This document shows, piece by piece, positions 671 to 10,220 of a DNA stretch of 12,432 nt. Source of the DNA: a virus (lineage: Duplodnaviria; Heunggongvirae; Uroviricota; Caudoviricetes). Both the position numbers and the translations under genes were made by a program. The notes below the pieces were generated by a model, which saw only the letters and a list, made by a program, of their open reading frames with translations, ran no database searches and had not been told where the DNA came from. The stretch lies in IMG/VR virus record IMGVR_UViG_2909246061_000008; one strand, written 5' to 3'. Within the stretch, counting starts at the first letter, position 1. Each line of letters begins with the position of its first letter.

Positions 671-795
671 AGAAAAAAAATTTTTTTCGAAAGAACTGTT
701 CACACTGTTCACCTTTCTGTTTTCTCCTTTTATTTCAGAGTGATAGGTGGTGAATAATGGGTGAAGGGTGAACATTCGATTCTTCACCTCCGGCA
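671..795. repeat. crr-like direct repeat, copy 1
   Basis: Aligns by eye with copy 2 at roughly 85-90% identity; contains three TGTTCACC-type octamers in both orientations. Confidence 0.7.
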
Positions 796-851
796 TTCTG
801 CCGGTGTGACTCATACCGGTGATTAATCCCCCGTACTGAAATCACTCAGGA

Positions 852-975
852 AGAAAAAAGTTTTTTTTGATTTGATTGTTCACACTGTTCACCTTTCGTT
901 TTTCTCTTTTAATTTCAGTATGATAACGGGTGAATATACGGTGAAGGGTGAACAGTGGATTGTTCACCTGCGGGG
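852..975. repeat. crr-like direct repeat, copy 2
   Basis: Aligns with copy 1; contains TGTTCACC at 886-893 and 961-968 and GGTGAACA at 947-954. Confidence 0.7.
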
Positions 976-1027: not shown

Positions 1028-2674
1028 TCAGGTTGTTGCAGGGTCGTCACATTTTGGCAGCCAGTCGCCGTAGCTTTCCTCTTTCAGCGTCAGGTTGGTC
1101 TGTATCCCCTGTTTGGTATGGCGCTTCTCGTAATTCAGTCCGTATTCCTTCAGCATCACCGGCAGCCCCAGCCCGAACATTTTCAGACTGAGTACATTCC
1201 GGTAGCCGTTTGCCTCCATGTAGGCCAGATAGGCGTGATAGAGGTATTTACGGTAATTACGCGGGATGATACTGGCGTTCCCCATATACATGCCGCTGGT
1301 CTGCGGCAGGGTTTCCAGATAGCCGATAAAATCAAACGTCGGGTCGGCATCCCGTTTGATGTTCAGCGCCTCGTCTGAGTTCTGCTGGGACTGAAGCAGT
1401 GACCGGGCGAGCATCGGGTCGCTGAACTTCTGCATCAGGTGACGCACGATGACCGCCAGCTCGCGGGTGATTTTGTCCTTAAGCTGCGGGTCGCGCTCCT
1501 GCGGGGCTATCTGTTCCGGGAAGTGAATAATCACCCGCCGGCGTGACACGCCGCCGCTGCGGTCGGTGAAGCGCATCGGGTTATTGTTCACGGCCAGAAT
1601 TACCGCCGGGATATGCGTGGAGTACGCATCCCGGTATTTCGGGTCCACGGACACCGCATCGCCGCCGGTGATGGCCTTGAGTCCGGCACCGTCGCCGCTC
1701 CATTTTTCCTGGTCCGGCAGGCGTATCAGTGAGAAGCCAGTTAACGCGGCACGTTCACGCGGGGATTCCAGCGTCTCGATGGTGGCCGACGTGGCGTTAT
1801 CCTCCCCGGCCAGCAGGGTGGCTATTTCGGCCATGATACTTTTGCCGCTGCCGCCGGGACCGGTCACCTCCAGAAAGAGCTGCCAGTCGTAGCGGTTTGC
1901 CAGCACCATAAACAGTGCGGCCAGAATCACGTCGCGTTTTTCCGCACGGCCACCGGCGGCACGGTCAAGCCAGCGCCAGAACGCGGGGGCGTGGGTTTCC
2001 AGCGTTTCCCCTTCCACCGGCGGGGTGAAATCCACATCGCACAGGGTGCGCATCCAGTGTGACGGACTGTGCGGGTGGAACGTGCCGTTCTGCGTGTCGA
2101 GCACGCCGTTACGAAAGCCAATCAGGCGGCGGGAGGGGGCTTCCTGCTGCGGAATAATCAGCTTCAGGGTGTCCACCACGGAGGCCACCTTCCCGGAGGA
2201 GAACGGCGCACGCAGCCGCTGAAACAGCCCGGCCACATCCCGGGCAAAGTCCTGTGGCGGCAGCACCTTCCAGACACCATTTTCATAGCGGGACAGAAGC
2301 TGGCCGTTGGCATCGACCGCGAGCGCCTCGCCGTAATGCTCATAGATACGCATGGCCTTTTCGCTGGTACTCATGGCGGAAAACTCCGCTTCGCTCATGG
2401 TGTCGAACGGGCTTTCAGCCGGTGGCCGGATGGCATCATAAATGGCCTTACGGGTGGCTTCCCCGCCGTACTGCGTGAAGGCATCATTCCAGTCACCGAA
2501 GACCGGCGGCAGGGCAACAACACCCTCACACGCATCTGCGGCTGCGGCGGCTTTTTTCTGGCCGTCACCGCTGAGGTCACGGTCTGCGGCAAGGACAATC
2601 TGACAGGCCGGATGCTTCTGCCGGGCAAGGCTGGCCAGAGAAAGGAGGTTCACGGAAGAAAGCGCCACCATCAC
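1028..2674 (-). CDS. P4 alpha-like primase/helicase, N-terminally truncated (TOPRIM remnant + SF3 helicase + C-terminal domain); possibly a pseudogene
   Basis: 548-aa ORF with a TOPRIM-like LAADRD motif near its start, Walker A GPGGSGKS, and an SF3-type motif C (ILAVNNNP). The reading frame stays open upstream to a stop at 2759-2761 (about 28 more codons) without reaching a primase N-terminal domain or a convincing start; the annotated start is GTG/ATG at 2674/2671. High G+C (~60%+). Adjacent to TGTTCACC iterons. Confidence 0.75.
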   Translation of the reverse strand: MMVALSSVNLLSLASLARQKHPACQIVLAADRDLSGDGQKKAAAAADACEGVVALPPVFGDWNDAFTQYGGEATRKAIYDAIRPPAESPFDTMSEAEFSAMSTSEKAMRIYEHYGEALAVDANGQLLSRYENGVWKVLPPQDFARDVAGLFQRLRAPFSSGKVASVVDTLKLIIPQQEAPSRRLIGFRNGVLDTQNGTFHPHSPSHWMRTLCDVDFTPPVEGETLETHAPAFWRWLDRAAGGRAEKRDVILAALFMVLANRYDWQLFLEVTGPGGSGKSIMAEIATLLAGEDNATSATIETLESPRERAALTGFSLIRLPDQEKWSGDGAGLKAITGGDAVSVDPKYRDAYSTHIPAVILAVNNNPMRFTDRSGGVSRRRVIIHFPEQIAPQERDPQLKDKITRELAVIVRHLMQKFSDPMLARSLLQSQQNSDEALNIKRDADPTFDFIGYLETLPQTSGMYMGNASIIPRNYRKYLYHAYLAYMEANGYRNVLSLKMFGLGLPVMLKEYGLNYEKRHTKQGIQTNLTLKEESYGDWLPKCDDPATT

Positions 2675-2895: not shown

Positions 2896-5800
2896 TTATT
2901 TACTGTTTATCAATTGCAATAATGGGATCTCAGCTACATCACTAGGAATATAGGGGTCATCTTCTTTTAAATTAACCCCAATACAATCAACATCATTTAA
3001 CCCAATTTCCCAAGCCCACCTAACATCTAACGTACTCATTTCTATCCCTAAACTATCTCTTTGTGGATGCTCAGGAACAATATTTTTTAACATCGCATCA
3101 CATCCAAGATAGAATTTTCCACAGGCCTGATACGCAGCAAGAAATCTTTCTAAATTGACGTTACTATCAGGAGTCATCGTATTAATTCTACTGATCATTG
3201 TCATTCTTTTAGTTAATGGCGTTGTCATCATATTTTCAGATATCAGCACTCTATAATGATTTGGGTTTTTAACTGAAATACCCTTGACAATACAAACCCG
3301 TAATCTGGCTTTACTATCTACCAAGCCTACTGATGATATAAGATCTTTAAAAATATCCTCACCTATATTGGGGTGTTTAAATAATAGATATAACCCTGGA
3401 TAACACGATTTTAATTGAGCGAAGCCTACTCCTTGCCAGCGTGTTCTATCCCATAGACGAGGCTTGATTAGACTTTGTATTGAATAATCTTTATGCGTTA
3501 TATTTTCGGAATTAAGTTCCTCTTCAGGCATTATTCCTTTACCAGGTGTTGGAACATTTACATCCTCGATCTCCAACACTTTCGGAAATTCACTATCCCA
3601 GGGTTTATCTCTTAAAAGAGGGTAAGTTTTCTTTTCAGCACTGGTGGAATAAATTTTCTTAATTTGTTGATCAATATCATTTCCAAGAACATTTTCAATA
3701 GCTTTGATACAGGCACCGAAACTAATTGCTCTGTCAAATGCAGCATCTTCGAATATCATTCTTTCAATGTATTCTGTATTTTTTGTAAAAAATAACTCAG
3801 GGAGAAGATCAAATACTATTTTCTTGAATTCATTAGTAATTTTTTGTTGAGCATCGACTCTAAATGAACTTGTTTCAAAACCATTGCAATTTATAGTAAG
3901 GTTTAGTTTTCCATTATTGCTATTTATTTCATGTGATAAGGAGAAGTCATCTTCATCATCTGCTATTACTTCAATAATTAAAAATGCTTCTTTCAGATGG
4001 ATGTTATCAATCGTACAAGTTGCAAAAGCACTCTCTAAAAGCGCTAAGATACTAGTTGAAAACTCTATAAATGGTGACCGATTCGGAAAGTTAATTTCTA
4101 TAGTGCATCCAAAAATAAAAGATGTATATATTCCTCGTTTATCATAGTTATCTTTTATGCCTTTACTATTGAATCCAGCATCAAAGTCACGTATTTCTTG
4201 CAAGAAATCATTATGATCTTTATCGGCAGTAACTTCATACTCATGTTCAAAATTTTCAATATAACCTAAAGCATATTTAAGACATCCAGATGATACAAAA
4301 AGACCTAATCTATCGAGTTCATCGGGAATATTACTCTGTCGATTTATTCCATTTAGGTCAGTGTTCAAAATGAGTTGACTTATGTAAAAATCAACTTGCT
4401 GATTTTCTTTATCGCCGAACGAACTTTCACTGATATTTTGGTTAATTATTAAAAACAGTTCATACCATAAAAGAGCATGTGCTAATTTCCCTAGTTTTAT
4501 TTCTGCCAGGCATAAACTATAATAAATCTCAGCCTGCTTTAATGATATCTCATCATACTTCCAGTAGTTATCTGTAATCAAAGAAGCGGATAGAAGCAAG
4601 CATGAACGTGAACTCCATAGCAACCCAATGGATTCGTAAGCATAAGCAATAGCTTTTAATGCTAATATAAATTTATCTCGTGATTCCTCTTTATAGAGTG
4701 GTATAAATGATTTTCCTAAATACTTGATTGCCTGATAAGGGTGACCATTTTGAATCCTCTTTATACCTCTTCGTAGATTTAATAATGCCCCTTTAACTTC
4801 ACCACCTCTAACAGCAGATTGCTCAGTCATATAGTCTAATAAATTTTCATATGCATCTACCTCGAAAAAAATGTCATCCAGTTCGTTCAAAAGTTGGAAG
4901 TTCTTCTCAAAGGAATAGCCTATTAAATTCCCACTATTTTTAAAAATTTCATGTAACTCTTCAAATACAACCGAAGCATCTTCTACATCTGAAAACGTTG
5001 TCAATTTATAAATAGCTTTGTGAGTTCTCGCTGTGAGTGCATTACTGGGACGTGATTCATCGTCAGCTATCTCATCTAGTTTAGCGAGCATGTTACGTTC
5101 AATATTCTCAATATCGATTGTAGATGTTGCGTTGTTAAGTCTAATATAACTTTTATGAACGGTTACTAAATTTAAAACTTTCTCCCATTTTGAGGAATTA
5201 GTTGATGATGCAATACTTTCATATGCAAATTGAAGATTTTCTTCAAAGAGATTAAAATCTTCCATCCAAAAATGAGACTTCCAGGCATATTGATAATACG
5301 CATCTAGCAATTGTTGATTAGTCCCGAATTTCTTTGATATTTTTATAGCTCTTTCAAATAGACCTTGTGTTTCAATTAGTGGTTTCTCAAGTTCAGCGCT
5401 TAACTCTGCAATTTCTAAAAAAATATCCACCTGTTCATATGAAATTTCAGCAGGGTTTATTTTCTCTCTAATATACTCGGTTAACTCTTCATATTTTTTA
5501 TGCTTTTTATAATCATTTTCTCCAAAAATAACTTCTCTTTTATATTGCGTTGGAACTGACAATGAATCAATGGCCAATTGCTCAAAATTATTTTTGTAAA
5601 TTTGATCTAATAGCCAATTAATATCTAATATACGAACATCTATTCCAGTTTTTGTTTTTAGTGTATCCTCAACCTCTGAACGAATATTGGACTTTGCAGA
5701 CTGGTTCGTTACGCAAAATACTTTAGCATACCCACGTTCTGTTTCTTTTATCTTAAGTACATCTTCATGGCATTTTTTCTTCCAGTCTTTACGTGTACTT

Positions 5801-6147
5801 ACCGCAAAGGCCCAGCGTTCTCTATTTGATGCTTCATTAACGCCTTCGAACCAAAGAAGCTTATTCTGTTCTGAAACAGGGAATGTTTGTGTGTCAGTTT
5901 TACCATCCCCCCCTGCTACAGGGCCAGTTTGTTCAAGGAGATTAGGGCAAATTATTTTTTCACATATTTTTTTTGCAAAATCTTCGAATTGTAGTTCTTG
6001 ATTTCTTGTATTTAGCGTAGAGAGGAAGTGTTCCAGTACAACTCTGTCTAAAGTACCAGTCTCTCTGATTGTTGAATCAGAAAATTTTTCAGGGCGACGG
6101 CGCCTTAGAAATTCTTTAGATGAAAATTTGGTTTTCTGTACATTCAT
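2896..6147 (-). CDS. Large hypothetical protein (1083 aa) encoded in a low-G+C cargo block; function unknown, candidate stand-alone defence/abortive-infection protein
   Basis: Single uninterrupted 3252-nt ORF. G+C is about 30-35% against ~55-65% in the flanks. A GAGGAG Shine-Dalgarno lies ~10 nt upstream of the ATG at 6147-6145, which overlaps the stop of the truncated stf (ATGA). Composition is Lys/Glu/Asn/Ile/Phe-rich, with helical repeat-like stretches in the middle. No Walker A (GxxxxGK[ST]) was found. The N-terminus carries GPVAGGDGKTD (aa 75-85), weakly reminiscent of an Mrr-type nuclease motif. Confidence 0.8.
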   Translation of the reverse strand: MNVQKTKFSSKEFLRRRRPEKFSDSTIRETGTLDRVVLEHFLSTLNTRNQELQFEDFAKKICEKIICPNLLEQTGPVAGGDGKTDTQTFPVSEQNKLLWFEGVNEASNRERWAFAVSTRKDWKKKCHEDVLKIKETERGYAKVFCVTNQSAKSNIRSEVEDTLKTKTGIDVRILDINWLLDQIYKNNFEQLAIDSLSVPTQYKREVIFGENDYKKHKKYEELTEYIREKINPAEISYEQVDIFLEIAELSAELEKPLIETQGLFERAIKISKKFGTNQQLLDAYYQYAWKSHFWMEDFNLFEENLQFAYESIASSTNSSKWEKVLNLVTVHKSYIRLNNATSTIDIENIERNMLAKLDEIADDESRPSNALTARTHKAIYKLTTFSDVEDASVVFEELHEIFKNSGNLIGYSFEKNFQLLNELDDIFFEVDAYENLLDYMTEQSAVRGGEVKGALLNLRRGIKRIQNGHPYQAIKYLGKSFIPLYKEESRDKFILALKAIAYAYESIGLLWSSRSCLLLSASLITDNYWKYDEISLKQAEIYYSLCLAEIKLGKLAHALLWYELFLIINQNISESSFGDKENQQVDFYISQLILNTDLNGINRQSNIPDELDRLGLFVSSGCLKYALGYIENFEHEYEVTADKDHNDFLQEIRDFDAGFNSKGIKDNYDKRGIYTSFIFGCTIEINFPNRSPFIEFSTSILALLESAFATCTIDNIHLKEAFLIIEVIADDEDDFSLSHEINSNNGKLNLTINCNGFETSSFRVDAQQKITNEFKKIVFDLLPELFFTKNTEYIERMIFEDAAFDRAISFGACIKAIENVLGNDIDQQIKKIYSTSAEKKTYPLLRDKPWDSEFPKVLEIEDVNVPTPGKGIMPEEELNSENITHKDYSIQSLIKPRLWDRTRWQGVGFAQLKSCYPGLYLLFKHPNIGEDIFKDLISSVGLVDSKARLRVCIVKGISVKNPNHYRVLISENMMTTPLTKRMTMISRINTMTPDSNVNLERFLAAYQACGKFYLGCDAMLKNIVPEHPQRDSLGIEMSTLDVRWAWEIGLNDVDCIGVNLKEDDPYIPSDVAEIPLLQLINSK

Positions 6148-7571
6148 GATTTTGACGCTCCTCTTGCTATCCCCTTTTTCGTCGTACTTGCATCCTCAAG
6201 CGCCACGGCGGATGCAATATCCTCTGCCCGTTTTGCCGCTGTCTCGGCGCGCGTTGCCGCGGATTCCGCCGTACTTTTGCTCTGTGCTGCCGCCGTCGCA
6301 CTGCCAGCTGCCTCTGTCGCCTTCGTGGATGCTGTCGTGGCGCTGCCCTTCGCTGCGGACGCTTGTCTGGTCGCCTCATCTTTTGAAGCAGACGCCGATG
6401 ATGCCGATGACGCCGCCGAACTGGCGGACGATGCCGCTGCCGTTTTTGAGGATTCTGCGCTGGTTTCCGACGCTTTCGCGTTCGTCTCGGATGTCTTCGC
6501 TGCGGAAGCAGACCTCGCTGCTGCGCTGGCCTGTTCAGTGGCTTCGCCAGCCTTCGTTGTGGCTGTTGAAGCAGACGATGCGGCACTTTCTGCCGATTTT
6601 CCGGCGGCGGTGGCACTGGCTGAGGCCTGCCCGGCACTTGTTGACGCGGCACTGGCAGACGACGCAGCCGCTGTTTTTGAGCCTGCCGCAGCCGAGGCGC
6701 TCTGTCCCGCTGCCGTTTCAGAAGACCTGGCGTTTGTCTCAGACGTCTTTGCCGCCTTCGCGGAATTGCCTGCCGCCGTTGCCGAGGAAGCGGCACTACT
6801 GGCGCTTGATGATGCGTTCGTTTCTGATGATTTCGCTGCCTCTTTTGAGGCCGCCGCATCCCGGGCTGAGGTGGCTGCTTCTGACGCCTTCGTGGTCGCG
6901 GCGGATGCAGAAGTGGCTGCTGATTGTTGTGACGCTGCCGCATTCGTTTCTGACGTTTTCGCCGCACCGGCACTGGTAGCTGCCGCGCTTTTTGAGGACT
7001 CTGCAGCAGCAGCACTTTTCGATGCTTCACTGGCCTTTGTTGATGCCGTTCCTGCGCTGGAAGTCGCTGACTGAGCCGACGACGCGGCCTGTCCGGCTGA
7101 CGTGCTGGCTGCGCGTGCTGAGCCTGCAGCATCAGTCGCATGGGTTGCCGCCTCACGGGCTGATGTGCTGGCATCACTGGCTGACTTCTTCGCGGCTGCC
7201 GTGTTCTGTGCCACCACGGACGCGTTACGCGCCACCTCTTCCACCATCAGCTCAAAACGGCGCAGTGCCTCCGGACGGGCATCATCCTCCGTCATGGCAC
7301 CGAGAAAATCATTCAGCGTACCGGGTCGGGAATCTTCATACACGGTAATGGTCCCGGCATGTGACGGCGGGAATCCTTCCACCAACAGACTGACGCTGTA
7401 CTGACCGTACTCAACGTCCATACTGTAACGCCCGGCTTCATCCGGATTTTCTGAGGCCAGCGTATTCACCACCACCGTGGTGCTGTTACGTTTTGCTTTC
7501 AGCTGGATTGTGCAGTTCTGTACCGGTTTTCCTGTGCCGTCTTTCAGTACACCTGAAATCTTTACTGCCAT
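6144..7571 (-). CDS. stf: Lambdoid side tail fibre protein Stf, N-terminal fragment, C-terminally truncated with 7 novel terminal codons
   Basis: N-terminus MAVKISGVLKDGTGKPVQNCTIQLKA... matches my recollection of lambda Stf, followed by an Ala/Ser/Thr-rich low-complexity region. Similarity ends after ...EDASTTKKGI; the tail ARGASKS is encoded by the junction sequence. ATG at 7571-7569 is preceded by a GGGGTGA Shine-Dalgarno; the ORF track's longer form starts at GTG 7577. Confidence 0.8.
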   Translation of the reverse strand: MAVKISGVLKDGTGKPVQNCTIQLKAKRNSTTVVVNTLASENPDEAGRYSMDVEYGQYSVSLLVEGFPPSHAGTITVYEDSRPGTLNDFLGAMTEDDARPEALRRFELMVEEVARNASVVAQNTAAAKKSASDASTSAREAATHATDAAGSARAASTSAGQAASSAQSATSSAGTASTKASEASKSAAAAESSKSAAATSAGAAKTSETNAAASQQSAATSASAATTKASEAATSARDAAASKEAAKSSETNASSSASSAASSATAAGNSAKAAKTSETNARSSETAAGQSASAAAGSKTAAASSASAASTSAGQASASATAAGKSAESAASSASTATTKAGEATEQASAAARSASAAKTSETNAKASETSAESSKTAAASSASSAASSASSASASKDEATRQASAAKGSATTASTKATEAAGSATAAAQSKSTAESAATRAETAAKRAEDIASAVALEDASTTKKGIARGASKS

Positions 7572-7582
7572 ATTCACCCCAC

Positions 7583-7609
7583 AAAAAAGCCCGCCTGAAC
7601 CGGCGGGCT
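7583..7609 (-). terminator. Rho-independent terminator between lom and stf
   Basis: 8-bp GC-rich stem (AGCCCGCC 7588-7595 with GGCGGGCT 7602-7609) around a 6-nt loop. On the minus strand it is followed by a T6 run (plus-strand A-run 7583-7588). Confidence 0.55.
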
Positions 7610-7635
7610 GTCATAACACTGTGTTACCTGGCTAA

Positions 7636-8235
7636 TCAGAATTTATAACCGACACCCATGATGAAACCGTCAGTGCGCCAGTCGCCACTGCCGGAGCCTT
7701 CATAAGCAATATCAATGGCCACGGATTCGGTCGGGTTAAACTGCACGCCAGCTCCCCACGCCAGAGACGTGTTGCTGTGGCGACCGTCATCACTTCCGGT
7801 CAGCACGTCGTGCGTTTTCCCCTTGTTGTCAGTTACGCGGAGATAATCCCCGGAGAAAGTCGACACACGGCTGTAAGCCACACCCGCCATCGCATACGCG
7901 CTGAACCATTCATTCACGCGCACAGACGGCCCCGCCATCACGCTGAACCAGCGGTTACGAACGGAATCTTCATGCCAGCGGGTATCGCTGTAACGGGTAA
8001 GCTGGCGATTCTTGTCTCCTGCATAGCTGAATGACGTCACTATCCCCAGTGTGTCCGTAAACTCATAACGGTATTTCACGTTAATCCCGTTCAGATCATC
8101 ACTGCCGGGAACGTTGGTCCGGGCATGAAGATACCCCGCGCTCAGCGTGGACTGATGTTCAGATGCCCATGCAGGCGCACCGGATACGGCCAGACAAATG
8201 GCTGCGGACAAAATGGCGGCATAAAGTTTACGCAT
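7636..8235 (-). CDS. lom: Lom-like outer membrane protein (Ail/Lom family)
   Basis: 199-aa ORF with a signal peptide ([24 protein letters not shown]) and the C-terminus ...[25 protein letters not shown] typical of Ail/Lom beta-barrels. A GAGAGG Shine-Dalgarno lies 6 nt upstream. Its position between the I fragment and stf mirrors lambda J-lom-stf order. Confidence 0.9.
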
Positions 8236-8257
8236 AATTACCTCTCGCTTTTCTGCA

Positions 8258-8284
8258 ATAAAAAAGGCACCATTTCTGGTGCCC
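8258..8284 (-). terminator. Rho-independent terminator upstream of lom and downstream of the I fragment
   Basis: Stem GGCACC (8266-8271) pairs with GGTGCC (8278-8283) around a 6-nt loop. On the minus strand it is followed by TTTTTTATT (plus-strand A-run 8258-8265). Confidence 0.5.
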
Positions 8285-8304
8285 TTATATGGGTTATAAC
8301 AATT

Positions 8305-8697
8305 TCAACGAATACTGATGCCGGAAGCGACTTTTTTGGTCACAATCACCGTACAGTCGGTGATATTACCTGCCCACTGATTGCCTTTATGGAAAACCTT
8401 AAACTCCAGAGTGACGCTTCCCCTGCCACTCGGCATATCAATAATCGCACTGTAGCTACCGGGAAGACGGGCTGATAATTCATTTTCGCCTGCATCACGC
8501 CCGGCAATGCGCACCTGATACCAGCCCTCATTCACTTTCTGGCGAAACGACGGAAGCTGCGTGGCCAGCGCCCGGATGGCTTCGGCCCCCGTTTTCACAC
8601 GAAGGTCGATGCGGTGGCCAAATCGTTGTAAATCCCCGTAAAGGCAGATGCGTGCCATGCCCGGTGACGCCAGAGGGAGTGTGTGCGTCGCTGCCAT
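8305..8697 (-). CDS. Lambdoid tail assembly protein I, N-terminal ~80 aa joined to an unrelated ~50-aa C-terminus; J is absent
   Basis: The first ~80 residues (MAATHTLPLASPGMARICLYGDLQRFG...WYQVRIAGRD) match my recollection of lambda gpI, then the sequence diverges (AGENELSARLPGSY...VASGISIR). The ORF is 130 aa against ~223 expected. No J-sized ORF lies between it and lom. Confidence 0.65.
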   Translation of the reverse strand: MAATHTLPLASPGMARICLYGDLQRFGHRIDLRVKTGAEAIRALATQLPSFRQKVNEGWYQVRIAGRDAGENELSARLPGSYSAIIDMPSGRGSVTLEFKVFHKGNQWAGNITDCTVIVTKKVASGISIR

Positions 8698-9347
8698 TTG
8701 TCGGTATACCTCTCTCGTTTGCTCAGTTGTTCAGGAATATGGTGCAACAGCTCGCCGTCGCCGCAGTAAATGGCGGCATGATTCGGCACCGATGAACCAA
8801 AACAGCACAGCAGCACATCGCCCGGTTGTGCTGATGACAACGGCACCTGATACAGCCCTGTGGCCTCCAGATTATCCAGATAGAGATTCTGACCGTGACG
8901 CCACCAGTCATCCCCGCGATGAAAATCCGGCATCTCAATTCCCGCCAGATGGTAAGCATCCCGGAACAGCGTGTAACAGTCCGTCACCCCGTGCTCAAAG
9001 CGCCGCCCGGTGAGATGCGGCACACAGCGGAATTTATGAATCGCCCCCCGGCAGACCAGCCACCACGGCAAATCACTCTGCACCTGCAGCCGCCGGTCGG
9101 TCTCACTCAGCCAGGGCAGACCACCGGGGTGGCTGTGGACCAGCGCCACAATCTCACCCTGCATCTCTGCCCGCAGCCAGTCCTCCGGCGACATCCGGAA
9201 ATACTCCTCCGGCTCACCGGAGATATTCACGCAGGGAAAATATCTTTCCCCCTCCGGTGTTCTCACCACGAAGCCGCACGACTCCGCTGGCGCACATCGC
9301 CGGGCGTGCGCCAGAATCGCTGATTCTGTCTCTGTCATGGGATTCAC
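8595..9347 (-). CDS. Lambdoid tail assembly protein K (JAB/MPN + NlpC/P60 domains)
   Basis: HSHPGG (JAB-like) motif and a Cys/His pair (..DCYTLF.., ..PNHAAIY..) typical of NlpC/P60. Near-lambda-like by recollection. GTG at 9347 overlaps the L stop (GTGA); an alternative ATG lies at 9338. The 3' end overlaps the I start by ~100 nt, as in lambda. Confidence 0.85.
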   Translation of the reverse strand: MNPMTETESAILAHARRCAPAESCGFVVRTPEGERYFPCVNISGEPEEYFRMSPEDWLRAEMQGEIVALVHSHPGGLPWLSETDRRLQVQSDLPWWLVCRGAIHKFRCVPHLTGRRFEHGVTDCYTLFRDAYHLAGIEMPDFHRGDDWWRHGQNLYLDNLEATGLYQVPLSSAQPGDVLLCCFGSSVPNHAAIYCGDGELLHHIPEQLSKRERYTDKWQRRTHSLWRHRAWHASAFTGIYNDLATASTFV

Positions 9348-9718
9348 TGCGAAAGTTTGTTAATGGAAAGGAAGCCGCCAAAGTTGCCGACGTTATTGCG
9401 AAACTTACAGCCGCTCAGGCATTTGCTGCATTTATCCTTCGTGATATCGGACGTCGGCTGATCATATTCATCCGCGACCGCCGGACCGTGATAACCGCAC
9501 TCATCACCGCGATAGGTCCAGGTGCAGGTGTTGGCCAGCATGATACGTCCCGGAAAAACGGCACCGTCCGTTTCCGTCGGCGTGGACAGTACAAAAGAGG
9601 CACTCACCGCGCTCAGTTCGCTGCACTGCTCGATGCGCCAGCGGCTGATCACCTCCTGCTCCGGATCGGCGTCACTGTTTCCGTTGACGAAGTTCACCGC
9701 ATCCAGATACCGTCCTTT
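9344..9718 (-). pseudogene. Lambdoid minor tail protein L, 5'-truncated (C-terminal ~125 codons only)
   Basis: Translation (K)GRYLDAVNFVNGNSDADPEQEVISRWRIEQ...FGGFLSINKLSQ matches the C-terminal part of lambda L as I recall it. An in-frame stop at 9719-9721 cuts off the N-terminal half, and the similarity ends exactly where the inverted repeat begins. Confidence 0.7.
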
Positions 9719-9720
9719 TT

Positions 9721-9809
9721 ACAAAACAGAGAAGAGCATCACCGGACGACGGGCTCATAACCCAATCCATCCGGGCGGCAGTCACCGCAGGTGTTCTTCT
9801 CTGTTTTGT
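9721..9809. repeat. Perfect 15-bp inverted repeat (ACAAAACAGAGAAGA / TCTTCTCTGTTTTGT) flanking a 59-bp spacer
   Basis: Arms at 9721-9735 and 9795-9809, read directly. It abuts the L truncation point and lies ~50 bp upstream of the yfdP-like start. Confidence 0.8.
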
Positions 9810-9857
9810 GGAGAAACTAACCGACCTTGCAGGGTCGATATGATGAGGAGCAGCAAA

Positions 9858-10220
9858 ATGGCTAGCGAACGCAGTACTGATGTGCAGGCATTTATCGGGG
9901 AGCTGGACGGCGGCGTATTTGAAACCAAAATCGGCGCAGTTCTCAGTGAAGTCGCTTCCGGTGTGATGAACACGAAAACCAAAGGTAAGGTCTCGCTCAA
10001 CCTGGAAATCGAACCGTTTGATGAGAACCGAGTGAAAATCAAACACAAACTCTCATATGTTCGCCCGACTAACCGCGGGAAAATTTCCGAAGAAGACACC
10101 ACCGAAACGCCGATGTATGTCAATCGCGGTGGTCGCCTGACTATTCTGCAGGAAGACCAGGGACAGTTACTGACTCTTGCCGGTGAACCTGACGGAAAAC
10201 TCCGCGCAGCAGGTCGTTAA
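9858..10220 (+). CDS. yfdP: YfdP-like prophage protein (120 aa), function unknown
   Basis: ATG at 9858 is preceded by GAGGAG at a suitable spacing. Length and gene order (followed by yfdQ/R/S/T-like genes) match the E. coli CPS-53 block as I recall it. The ORF track's longer form (from 9522) runs through the inverted repeat and is unlikely to be real. Confidence 0.6.
   Translation: MASERSTDVQAFIGELDGGVFETKIGAVLSEVASGVMNTKTKGKVSLNLEIEPFDENRVKIKHKLSYVRPTNRGKISEEDTTETPMYVNRGGRLTILQEDQGQLLTLAGEPDGKLRAAGR

What the first reader, a model, noticed from the sequence alone, without database searches (positions are those of the whole stretch)
7636..9718. Decayed lambdoid tail module: 5'-truncated L, intact K, I fragment, J deleted, intact lom with flanking terminators
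Seen: L lacks its N-terminal half; K appears intact; the I ORF matches lambda I for ~80 residues and then switches to unrelated sequence, ending 70 bp before lom; there is no room for a J gene. lom is intact, with a signal peptide, good RBS and terminator-like hairpins on both sides. Inference: a deletion removed most of I and all or nearly all of J, possibly fusing I to the 3' end of J; this is a guess, since I cannot recall the J C-terminal sequence. The intact lom could reflect selection for retention.
Basis: partly seen in the sequence, partly recalled or inferred. Interest (0 to 1): 0.45.

Follow-up and report, generated by a model that had tools for sequence, protein, structure and literature searches.

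The report
Decayed lambda-like prophage tail remnant
This stretch of an E. coli chromosome is the worn-down remains of a lambda-like virus's tail genes, broken by several deletions, and it is an ordinary, already annotated kind of genomic fossil.

Summary
On the minus strand lie a 3' fragment of tail gene L (codons 111-232), an intact K, the first 78 codons of I fused in frame to the last 52 codons of J, then 69 nt with a terminator-like hairpin, an intact lom, and a second hairpin. Against the closest phage (Ayreon) the I-J joint is one 3,813-bp deletion across a 2-nt TT overlap. The window is an E. coli chromosome next to paoD. The same joint occurs in 7 of 5,426 complete E. coli genomes, and RefSeq already annotates the I and J pieces as pseudogene fragments. 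Relatives at the same site range from a full prophage to more eroded versions, so this is stepwise prophage decay. Selection for keeping lom is not supported. Three of ten independent J-removing deletions in other strains also cut into lom, and dN/dS is the same for intact lom/K (0.14) and truncated stf (0.17). One unplanned result: the outer end of the L truncation (window 9708) is a recurrent deletion endpoint. Four different junctions end there, inside one arm of a hairpin present in intact relatives. Verdict: real, correctly read, ordinary and already known. Interest is low.

The parts
9344..9707 (-). L' : 3' fragment of minor tail protein gene L (codons 111-232 of 232, with its own stop codon)
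   Evidence: It is 98% identical to lambda L 111-232. It matches Pfam PF05100 positions 83-206 of 206 and TIGR01600 positions 100-224 of 224. DNA homology to phage Ayreon ends at 9707.
9707..9708 (.). Deletion junction joining mid-L to a point 150 nt upstream of yfdP. The early-left operon yfdPQRST runs on the + strand from 9858.
   Evidence: Alignments. Sister genomes (JSMCR1, E3, EC21Z-063) keep 325 bp more of L, from nt 9, joined at the same yfd-side base.
8595..9338 (-). K: intact tail-tip assembly protein gene (JAB/MPN + NlpC/P60), 247 codons
   Evidence: It is 95% identical to lambda K over 199 aa and both Pfam domains are present. The HSHPGGLPWLSETD (HxHx7Sx2D) motif and the DC catalytic cysteine are read from the translation. 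PGAP calls it intact, WP_072778576.1.
8464..8697 (-). I' : first 78 codons of tail assembly gene I. Its first 103 nt overlap the end of K, as in lambda.
   Evidence: It is 85% identical to lambda I 1-78. It matches Pfam Lambda_tail_I positions 2-63 of 83.
8305..8465 (-). 'J : last 52 codons plus the stop codon of tail-tip/host-specificity gene J, fused in frame to I'. The junction is the TT at 8464-8465.
   Evidence: DNA is 96% identical to the Ayreon J 3' end. It matches Ig_GpJ_C positions 76-134 of 135 and lambda_TipJ positions 1090-1163 of 1163. It aligns to lambda J 1080-1131. The deletion is 3,813 bp relative to Ayreon.
8263..8286 (-). Terminator-like hairpin with a U-run between 'J and lom
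   Evidence: 10-bp stem, -15.6 kcal/mol, z -2.95. It coincides with the terminator annotated after J in Ayreon.
7636..8235 (-). lom: intact Ail/Lom outer-membrane beta-barrel gene (199 codons)
   Evidence: Pfam Ail_Lom 1-199 of 199, 397 bits. It is 46% identical to lambda Lom and differs from Ayreon lom at 14 of 600 nt. The ribosome-binding site, the signal peptide and the C-terminal GYKF are read. PGAP accession WP_072778574.1.
7588..7609 (-). Terminator-like hairpin with a U-run after lom
   Evidence: 8-bp GC-rich stem, -20.7 kcal/mol, z -2.85. It coincides with the Ayreon terminator annotated after lom.
6144..7571 (-). stf': N-terminal part of the side tail fibre gene, truncated by a further deletion.
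   Evidence: Pfam phage_tail_N 1-134 of 134. PGAP notes it as 'missing C-terminus'. The junction at 6167-6171 has a 5-nt overlap relative to strain GZ04-0086, where about 2.86 kb (stf 3' end, tfa, an integrase fragment) lies in between.

Best explanation
The region is the non-functional remnant of the tail-tip module (L-K-I-J-lom-stf) of a lambda-like prophage. The prophage was integrated at the thrW/paoD-side locus of an E. coli chromosome.

At least three illegitimate, microhomology-type deletions shaped the module:
1. A 3,813-bp deletion across a TT dinucleotide removed I codons 79 to the end, the I-J spacer and J codons 1 to about 1112. It left an in-frame 130-codon I'-'J chimera.
2. A large deletion removed everything from the start of L through the head, lysis, replication and immunity genes, ending 150 nt upstream of yfdP. 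In this lineage a further 325 bp of L was then lost, leaving L codons 111-232.
3. A deletion of about 2.9 kb removed the 3' part of stf and tfa.

K and lom are intact simply because no deletion has hit them yet. No tail can be made, because J, M, H and the other tail genes are absent.

Shown: the anatomy, the junctions, their distribution among genomes and the graded series of relatives. Inferred: the order of events, and that K and the chimera are silent because the Q-dependent late promoter is gone. lom may still be expressed as an autonomous lysogeny-expressed gene (a 'moron'), as reported for lambda, but no promoter was detected here.
For: - **Junction mapping** against Ayreon and lambda.
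- **Domain content:**
- **Existing annotation:** RefSeq gives the I and J fragments as pseudogenes in the identical genome NZ_AP025220.2.
- **Distribution:** the I'-'J junction is present in 7 of 5,426 complete E. coli genomes, all at the same locus.
- **Graded series at this locus:**
  - Full prophage in GZ04-0086.
  - An int-thrW end with a different cro'-'J deletion in CUPS03.
  - L retained from nt 9 in JSMCR1, E3 and EC21Z-063.
  - The window type, with L from codon 111.
  - Further erosion in PS2Canimalfeces3 and ECCWS199.
- **Independent J-removing deletions** with other endpoints occur in nine other prophage remnants.
- **Analogous decay** is seen in K-12 Rac.
- **Promoters:** no sigma-70-like promoter was found in 7400-9950.
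Against: - Nothing contradicts the decay reading.
- The scenario's timing is open. The order of the I-J and L-yfd deletions cannot be fixed.
- It is also unclear whether the 325-bp L loss was a second step or an independent large deletion from a fuller ancestor.
- Expression was not measured, so 'silent' for K and the chimera is an inference. The promoter scan is only a consensus match.
Confidence: 0.93

Rival explanations
1. lom, and perhaps K, has been domesticated: the host keeps it by selection while the surrounding phage genes rot. Lom would act as an Ail-family adhesin or serum-resistance outer-membrane protein.
For: - lom is intact with a ribosome-binding site, a signal peptide and flanking terminators, which is the layout expected of an autonomous 'moron' gene.
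- Lambda lom is reported to be expressed in lysogens and to promote adhesion (PMC7067206, PMC3594210).
- lom is intact in all 7 genomes that carry this remnant.
Against: - Of ten independent J-removing deletions, three also truncate lom (L008, L013, L016). Uniform endpoints would predict no fewer than that, even though my sampling favoured lom-containing hits.
- dN/dS against Ayreon is 0.14 for lom, 0.14 for K and 0.17 for the truncated stf'. The purifying signal therefore predates the decay.
- The seven carriers are at least 99.9% identical here, so there is no power to see selection after the decay.
- No promoter was detected, and lom promoter regulation is poorly known (PMC2147009).
- K-12 lomR is itself truncated and interrupted by IS5.
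Confidence: 0.12
2. The I ORF is a full-length, divergent I allele, and J is simply encoded elsewhere.
For: None found.
Against: - The C-terminal 52 residues match the J C-terminal domain in Pfam and NCBIfam.
- They are 96% identical in DNA to the last 161 nt of Ayreon J, including its stop codon and the downstream terminator.
- Intact I alleles are 182-223 aa and diverge from the window exactly at 8464.
Confidence: 0.01
3. The joints are assembly or chimera artefacts rather than real deletions.
For: None.
Against: - The I'-'J joint is identical in seven independently assembled complete genomes from different hosts and countries.
- The L'-yfd joint of the window type is present in two further complete genomes and in a metagenome contig.
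Confidence: 0.01
4. The I'-'J joint arose by illegitimate recombination between two different co-resident lambdoid prophages, not by an intramolecular deletion in one prophage.
For: - The two flanks differ slightly in identity to Ayreon (97.7% against 96.1%).
- E. coli genomes carry several lambdoid prophages. Hits to the 2.5-kb query occur at a median of 5 places per genome.
Against: - Both flanks have the same best phage relative, in collinear order and orientation, and at the distance expected for one module.
- The outcome, a dead module, is the same either way, and the data cannot separate the two routes.
Confidence: 0.1

Closest known systems
Phage lambda tail-tip module L-K-I-J-lom-stf (NC_001416, 13,429-20,855)
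   Same: Same gene order and orientation, and the same 103-nt K/I overlap. L' is 98% identical, K 95% and I(1-78) 85%. lom sits between J and stf, flanked by hairpins.
   Different: L lacks codons 1-110, I lacks codons 79-223 and J is reduced to its last 52 codons. The lom allele is only 46% identical to lambda Lom, and the J C-terminus is 39% identical. stf is truncated. There is no M, H or other tail gene upstream.
Escherichia phage Ayreon (MF807953), the closest sequenced phage
   Same: 97.7% DNA identity over L'-K-I' and 96.1% over 'J-lom-stf'. Annotated terminators after J and after lom sit at the positions of the two hairpins.
   Different: Ayreon has the complete module. The window lacks Ayreon locus L002 positions 10245-14057 (3,813 bp) and everything upstream of L codon 111.
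Cryptic prophage remnants of E. coli, for example K-12 Rac (ynaA-lomR-stfR-tfaR), and the RefSeq annotation of this very locus in NZ_AP025220.2
   Same: Tail modules are reduced by deletions to fragments around lom and stf. In Rac a tape-measure fragment (ynaA) runs into a truncated lomR. PGAP lists L', I', 'J and stf' here as 'incomplete; partial' pseudogenes.
   Different: In Rac lom itself is truncated and split by IS5, and K and I are gone. Here lom and K survive, and the I-J joint happens to be in frame.
Phage 'morons': autonomous lysogeny-expressed genes such as lambda lom and bor
   Same: lom is a single gene bracketed by terminator-like hairpins and has its own ribosome-binding site. 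Lambda lom is described as expressed in lysogens (PMC7067206, PMC3594210).
   Different: No promoter was identified upstream of this lom. Expression from a remnant lacking the rest of the prophage is untested.

Membership tests
Phage minor tail protein L (PF05100 / TIGR01600) | Full-length match to the family profile (about 206-224 positions) | tested here: not met
   Only profile positions 83-206 of 206 and 100-224 of 224 are present. These correspond to lambda L residues 111-232. It is a fragment of a true member, not a functional gene.
Lambda gpK (tail-tip assembly protein, JAB/MPN + NlpC/P60) | Both domains present, full-length collinearity with lambda K, and catalytic motifs intact | tested here: met
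   PF14464 and PF00877 both exceed their cut-offs. Identity to lambda K is 95% over all 199 aa. The HxHx7Sx2D motif and the Cys/His of NlpC/P60 are visible in the translation. Activity was not tested.
Lambda gpI (PF06805, tail assembly protein I) | Complete protein of about 182-223 aa, including the C-terminal part after the N-terminal domain | tested here: not met
   Only residues 1-78 are I-derived, matching profile positions 2-63 of 83. The rest of the ORF is J sequence.
Lambda TipJ / host specificity protein J (NF049904) | Whole-protein score above the curated cut-off (1950 bits), length about 1130-1165 aa | tested here: not met
   The score is 44 bits, and only profile positions 1090-1163 of 1163 are present. 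Ig_GpJ_C positions 76-134 of 135 are present.
Ail/Lom outer-membrane beta-barrel family (PF06316) | Full-length profile match, N-terminal signal peptide and C-terminal aromatic residue | tested here: met
   The match covers 1-199 of 199 at 397 bits against a cut-off of 23. The signal peptide [24 protein letters not shown] and the terminal ...GYKF are read. Membrane insertion was not tested.
Moron (autonomous transcription unit inside a prophage) | Own promoter upstream and own terminator downstream, with expression independent of phage late transcription | tested here: inconclusive
   Terminator-like hairpins lie on both sides. No sigma-70 consensus promoter was found in 7400-9950. Expression cannot be tested with these tools.
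Defective (cryptic) prophage remnant | Phage-derived genes in a bacterial chromosome that lack genes essential for virion production, with more complete relatives at the same locus | tested here: met
   The chromosomal context is paoD to yfdP-T. A full prophage occupies the same site in GZ04-0086 and an int-thrW end survives in CUPS03. J, M, H, the head, lysis and immunity genes are absent from the window.

The most novel reading that the evidence does not exclude
Prophage decay here may not be random. The outer end of the L truncation (window 9708) lies at a site-specific fragile point.

- In intact relatives the site sits in the middle of the 3' arm of an 11-bp-stem hairpin followed by a T-run. 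The hairpin lies between the cI-like repressor gene and yfdP.
- Four different junctions end at that same base: L nt 9, L codon 73, L codon 111 and a holin fragment.
- Three of the four are large deletions that inactivate the prophage but spare the yfdPQRST operon.
- If the effect is real, a hairpin-triggered break repeatedly 'grounds' this family of lambdoid prophages at a predictable position.
Probability: 0.3. Interest if true: 0.35.

Novelty: already known. Interest (0 to 1): 0.12.

Why it matters
Deletion-driven decay of lambdoid prophages is textbook, similar remnants are known in K-12, and NCBI's pipeline already flags these very fragments as pseudogenes. Its value is as a clean, fully mapped example. 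It has an exact 3,813-bp in-frame I-J deletion and a graded series of more and less eroded versions at one chromosomal site. It also gives a negative result for the idea that lom is being kept by selection. The only element that might interest a specialist is the side observation that several independent large deletions share one endpoint inside a hairpin upstream of yfdP. That hints at a mutational hot spot for prophage inactivation.

Tried and rejected
1. **Full-length divergent I allele.** Rejected.
2. **Selection on lom, by dN/dS.** Values are equal for intact and truncated genes, so the test is uninformative about the period after the decay. My first I' segment in that call was out of frame and is ignored.
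3. **The CT/TC difference 5 nt from the L'-yfd junction as a repair scar.** Rejected. GTCC is a common natural allele in intact sequences.
4. **Shared endpoints explained as natural mosaic boundaries.** Rejected for J, where 2,092 genomes are continuous across the site. Rejected for the yfd site, where 819 records are continuous and the natural boundaries lie 34-54 nt upstream.
5. **First hairpin test.** I used a slice that cut off the 5' arm, and it was negative. Refolding the correct slice gave a strong hairpin at the yfd site. No hairpin was found at the J-side endpoint.
6. **An IS1-end-like 9-mer (GGTGATGCT, recalled from memory) near the junction.** It lies 27 nt from the breakpoint, so it is not the cause.
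7. **RNA searches.** tRNA and Rfam searches of the window found nothing. An Rfam search of the repressor-yfdP spacer of an intact relative also found nothing.
8. **Family searches of the neighbouring 1083-aa orphan** against Pfam, PADLOC, NCBIfam, PHROGs and PDB: no hit.
9. **Unavailable paper.** PMC3718152 (lambda ribosome profiling) is not held.
Full report
**What is in the window**

The 12.4-kb window is E. coli chromosomal DNA. It is identical, apart from an IS1 and three base differences, to NZ_AP025220.2 (strain 2017.11.01CC). It begins at the end of paoD with a LysR-family pseudogene.

On the minus strand the order is:
- a P4-family primase fragment;
- an orphan 1083-codon low-GC gene;
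- the tail-fibre fragment stf';
- lom;
- K;
- a fragment of L.

On the plus strand, diverging from L', lie yfdP, yfdQ, yfdR, yfdS and yfdT.

**Checking the observation**

- L' (9344-9707) is lambda L residues 111-232 at 98% identity. It covers profile positions 83-206 of 206.
- K (8595-9338) is 95% identical to lambda K over its whole length. It has the JAB and NlpC/P60 domains.
- The 130-codon ORF (8305-8697) matches lambda I for exactly 78 residues at 85% identity. It then switches sequence.
- The ORF stops 69 nt before lom.
- lom (7636-8235) is a full-length Ail/Lom gene, matching 1-199 of 199 at 397 bits. It has a GAGAGG ribosome-binding site and a typical signal peptide.
- Terminator-like hairpins with U-runs lie at 8286-8263 and 7609-7588. 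They sit exactly where phage Ayreon has annotated terminators after J and after lom.

**The I-J joint**

The 'unrelated sequence' after I residue 78 is the extreme C-terminus of J.
- Pfam places Ig_GpJ_C (positions 76-134 of 135) on residues 75-129. NCBIfam places lambda_TipJ (1090-1163 of 1163) on residues 60-130.
- At the DNA level, window 8464-9707 aligns without gaps to Ayreon L-K-I at 97.7%. Window 6730-8465 aligns to the Ayreon J 3' end, lom and the stf 5' end at 96.1%.
- The two blocks overlap by the dinucleotide TT (8464-8465), which is present in both parents.
- The joint is therefore one 3,813-bp deletion with 2-nt microhomology. It is in frame: the ORF runs on to J's own stop codon.
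- PGAP annotates the same two pieces ('tail assembly protein, missing C-terminus' and 'phage tail tip protein, missing N-terminus') in the RefSeq record.

**Distribution and history**

The I'-'J junction occurs in 7 of 5,426 complete E. coli genomes, always at this locus. Relatives at the locus form a series.
- **GZ04-0086** has a full lambdoid prophage with intact L, K, I, J, lom, stf and tfa next to the same orphan gene.
- **CUPS03** keeps the int-thrW end and yfdP-T, and has a different big deletion (cro' joined to mid-J).
- **JSMCR1, E3 and EC21Z-063** share the I'-'J joint but keep L from nt 9, joined to a point 150 nt upstream of yfdP.
- **The window, 2017.11.01CC and PSS-10** lack a further 325 bp of L.
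- **PS2Canimalfeces3** has L from nt 9 joined instead to an autotransporter fragment 3.5 kb further on. It also has a 5.4-kb deletion between the primase fragment and stf'.
- **ECCWS199** has additionally lost L and the start of K.

In an intact relative (strain 22-250) the yfd-side point lies between a cI-like repressor gene and yfdP. The L-yfd deletion therefore removed the tail-shaft, head, lysis, replication and immunity genes.

A third deletion of about 2.86 kb, with a 5-nt overlap at 6167-6171, removed the 3' part of stf, tfa and an integrase fragment. It left the stf' stop codon overlapping the orphan gene's ATG.

This is stepwise decay by small-homology deletions. The order of the first two events cannot be fixed.

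**Is lom kept by selection?**

I looked at ten independent deletions that remove J in other E. coli prophage remnants.
- lom is intact in seven and truncated in three (EC2341, H3 and 2013C-4974). My sampling ranked hits by similarity to a lom-containing query, which favours intact lom.
- dN/dS against Ayreon is 0.14 for lom, 0.14 for K and 0.17 for the truncated stf'. The purifying signal was inherited from the phage phase.
- The seven carriers are at least 99.9% identical, so there is no power to detect later selection. The window's two private substitutions fall in stf' and I', which is not significant.
- No sigma-70-like promoter was found anywhere in 7400-9950.
- The literature says lambda lom is expressed in lysogens and aids adhesion (PMC7067206, PMC3594210). 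It also says its promoter is poorly understood and its expression is not always detected (PMC2147009).

Retention by chance is the simpler reading. A functional lom is possible but not shown.

**How it works**

It does not work as a tail module. J, M, H and the rest are missing, L and I are fragments, and the Q-dependent late promoter region is deleted.

K and the 130-aa chimera have no evident promoter and are probably silent (inference). The chimera combines a truncated I N-terminal domain (63 of 83 profile positions) with less than half of the J receptor-binding Ig domain. I see no reason to expect a fold or a function.

lom is the one gene that could still act on its own. It would be an Ail-family outer-membrane protein, bracketed by terminators like a classical moron.

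**Side observation: shared endpoints**

The yfd-side end of the L' junction (window 9708, 'TACCG...') is used by four different junctions:
- L nt 9 (JSMCR1 type, and a metagenome contig);
- L codon 111 (window type);
- L codon about 73, in 13 genomes of the N169 type, which sit at another chromosomal locus and carry alleles about 5% diverged;
- a holin fragment, in a metagenome contig.

Among 117 loci carrying the adjacent 38-mer with enough upstream sequence, 7 have late-gene DNA within 2.5 kb upstream. Six of these, representing the four types, join exactly at this base. One (CUPS03) joins 1,449 nt away.

The site is continuous in 819 E. coli records and is not a natural mosaic boundary. Natural boundaries sit 34-54 nt upstream.

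In intact sequence the site is the middle of the 3' arm of an 11-bp-stem hairpin followed by TCTTTTT (DNA fold -13.4 kcal/mol, z -3.3). This suggests a structure-linked deletion hot spot.

Two caveats apply. The window type may descend from the JSMCR1 type rather than being independent. The late-gene reference set used was small.

Separately, the J-side end of the window's I'-'J joint lies within 1 bp of the J-side end of an independent K'-'J deletion in strain Z1323CEC0014. No hairpin or mosaic boundary explains this. With about ten endpoints compared, it could be chance (roughly 1%, judged after the fact).

**Comparison with what is known, and verdict**

The closest known items are:
- the lambda and Ayreon tail-tip modules, with the same order and 85-98% protein identity for L', K and I';
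- cryptic prophage remnants such as K-12 Rac, where a tape-measure fragment runs into a truncated, IS5-split lomR next to stfR.

K and lom pass their family tests. L, I and J fail as complete genes and are fragments of true members.

The finding is real and was read correctly. It is an ordinary, already annotated example of prophage decay, so interest is low. The hairpin-associated recurrent endpoint is the only part that might repay a systematic look.

Noticed in passing
window 9708; intact form at L011 2468-2512 and at about L019 16760-16805: The yfd-side end of the L' junction is shared to the base by four different junctions (L nt 9, L codon about 73, L codon 111, a holin fragment). In intact relatives it lies inside the 3' arm of an 11-bp-stem hairpin followed by a T-run, between the cI-like repressor gene and yfdP. 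This may be a deletion hot spot.
   Followed up: partly
window 8464-8465; L009 4066-4067: The J-side end of the I'-'J deletion is within 1 bp of the J-side end of an independent K'-'J deletion in strain Z1323CEC0014, which carries different alleles. The K'-'J junction occurs in 2 genomes. No structure or mosaic boundary was found at the site, so it may be coincidence.
   Followed up: partly
window 2896-6147 (- strand): A 1083-codon gene at about 32% GC has no match in Pfam, PADLOC, NCBIfam, PHROGs or PDB sequences. It sits next to an integrase fragment at the prophage edge in relatives (GZ04-0086, CUPS03) and is split by IS1 in strain 2017.11.01CC. It could be an uncharacterised accessory or defence gene.
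   Followed up: partly
window 674-973 and 1028-2674 (- strand): A P4-family primase/helicase gene lacks its N-terminus. It is followed by two 120-nt direct repeats (81% identical, 180 nt start to start) that hold all five copies of TGTTCACC in the window (0.37 expected). From memory, this resembles the iteron-bearing cis replication region of satellite phage P4.
   Followed up: partly
window 6144-6171: The deletion that truncates stf leaves the stf' stop codon overlapping the ATG of the orphan gene (ATGA). The junction has a 5-nt overlap relative to GZ04-0086.
   Followed up: no
L011 1949-2500 (strain 22-250); partly window 9708-9857: About 550 nt between the cI-like repressor gene and the hairpin carry no annotated gene. 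Nearly the whole stretch was conserved in about 20 of the 117 sampled loci. There was no Rfam match. The 'hypothetical' 44-66-aa ORF annotated here (phrog_33599) may be spurious.
   Followed up: partly
L003 1282-6486 (strain N169, yjjG-prfC locus): A compact remnant reads int, HNH endonuclease, yfdR-P, L', K, I, J, lom, stf'. It is followed by an S74-peptidase tail fibre gene and a reverse transcriptase + SLATT gene pair (retron-like) beside a DinI-like gene.
   Followed up: no
window 7464 and 8535: Two substitutions are private to the window relative to the four carrier genomes compared base by base (the 8535 difference is also seen against all seven). Both fall in pseudogene fragments (stf' and I', the latter causing L to V). 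The window therefore comes from a strain not in the complete-genome collection.
   Followed up: yes
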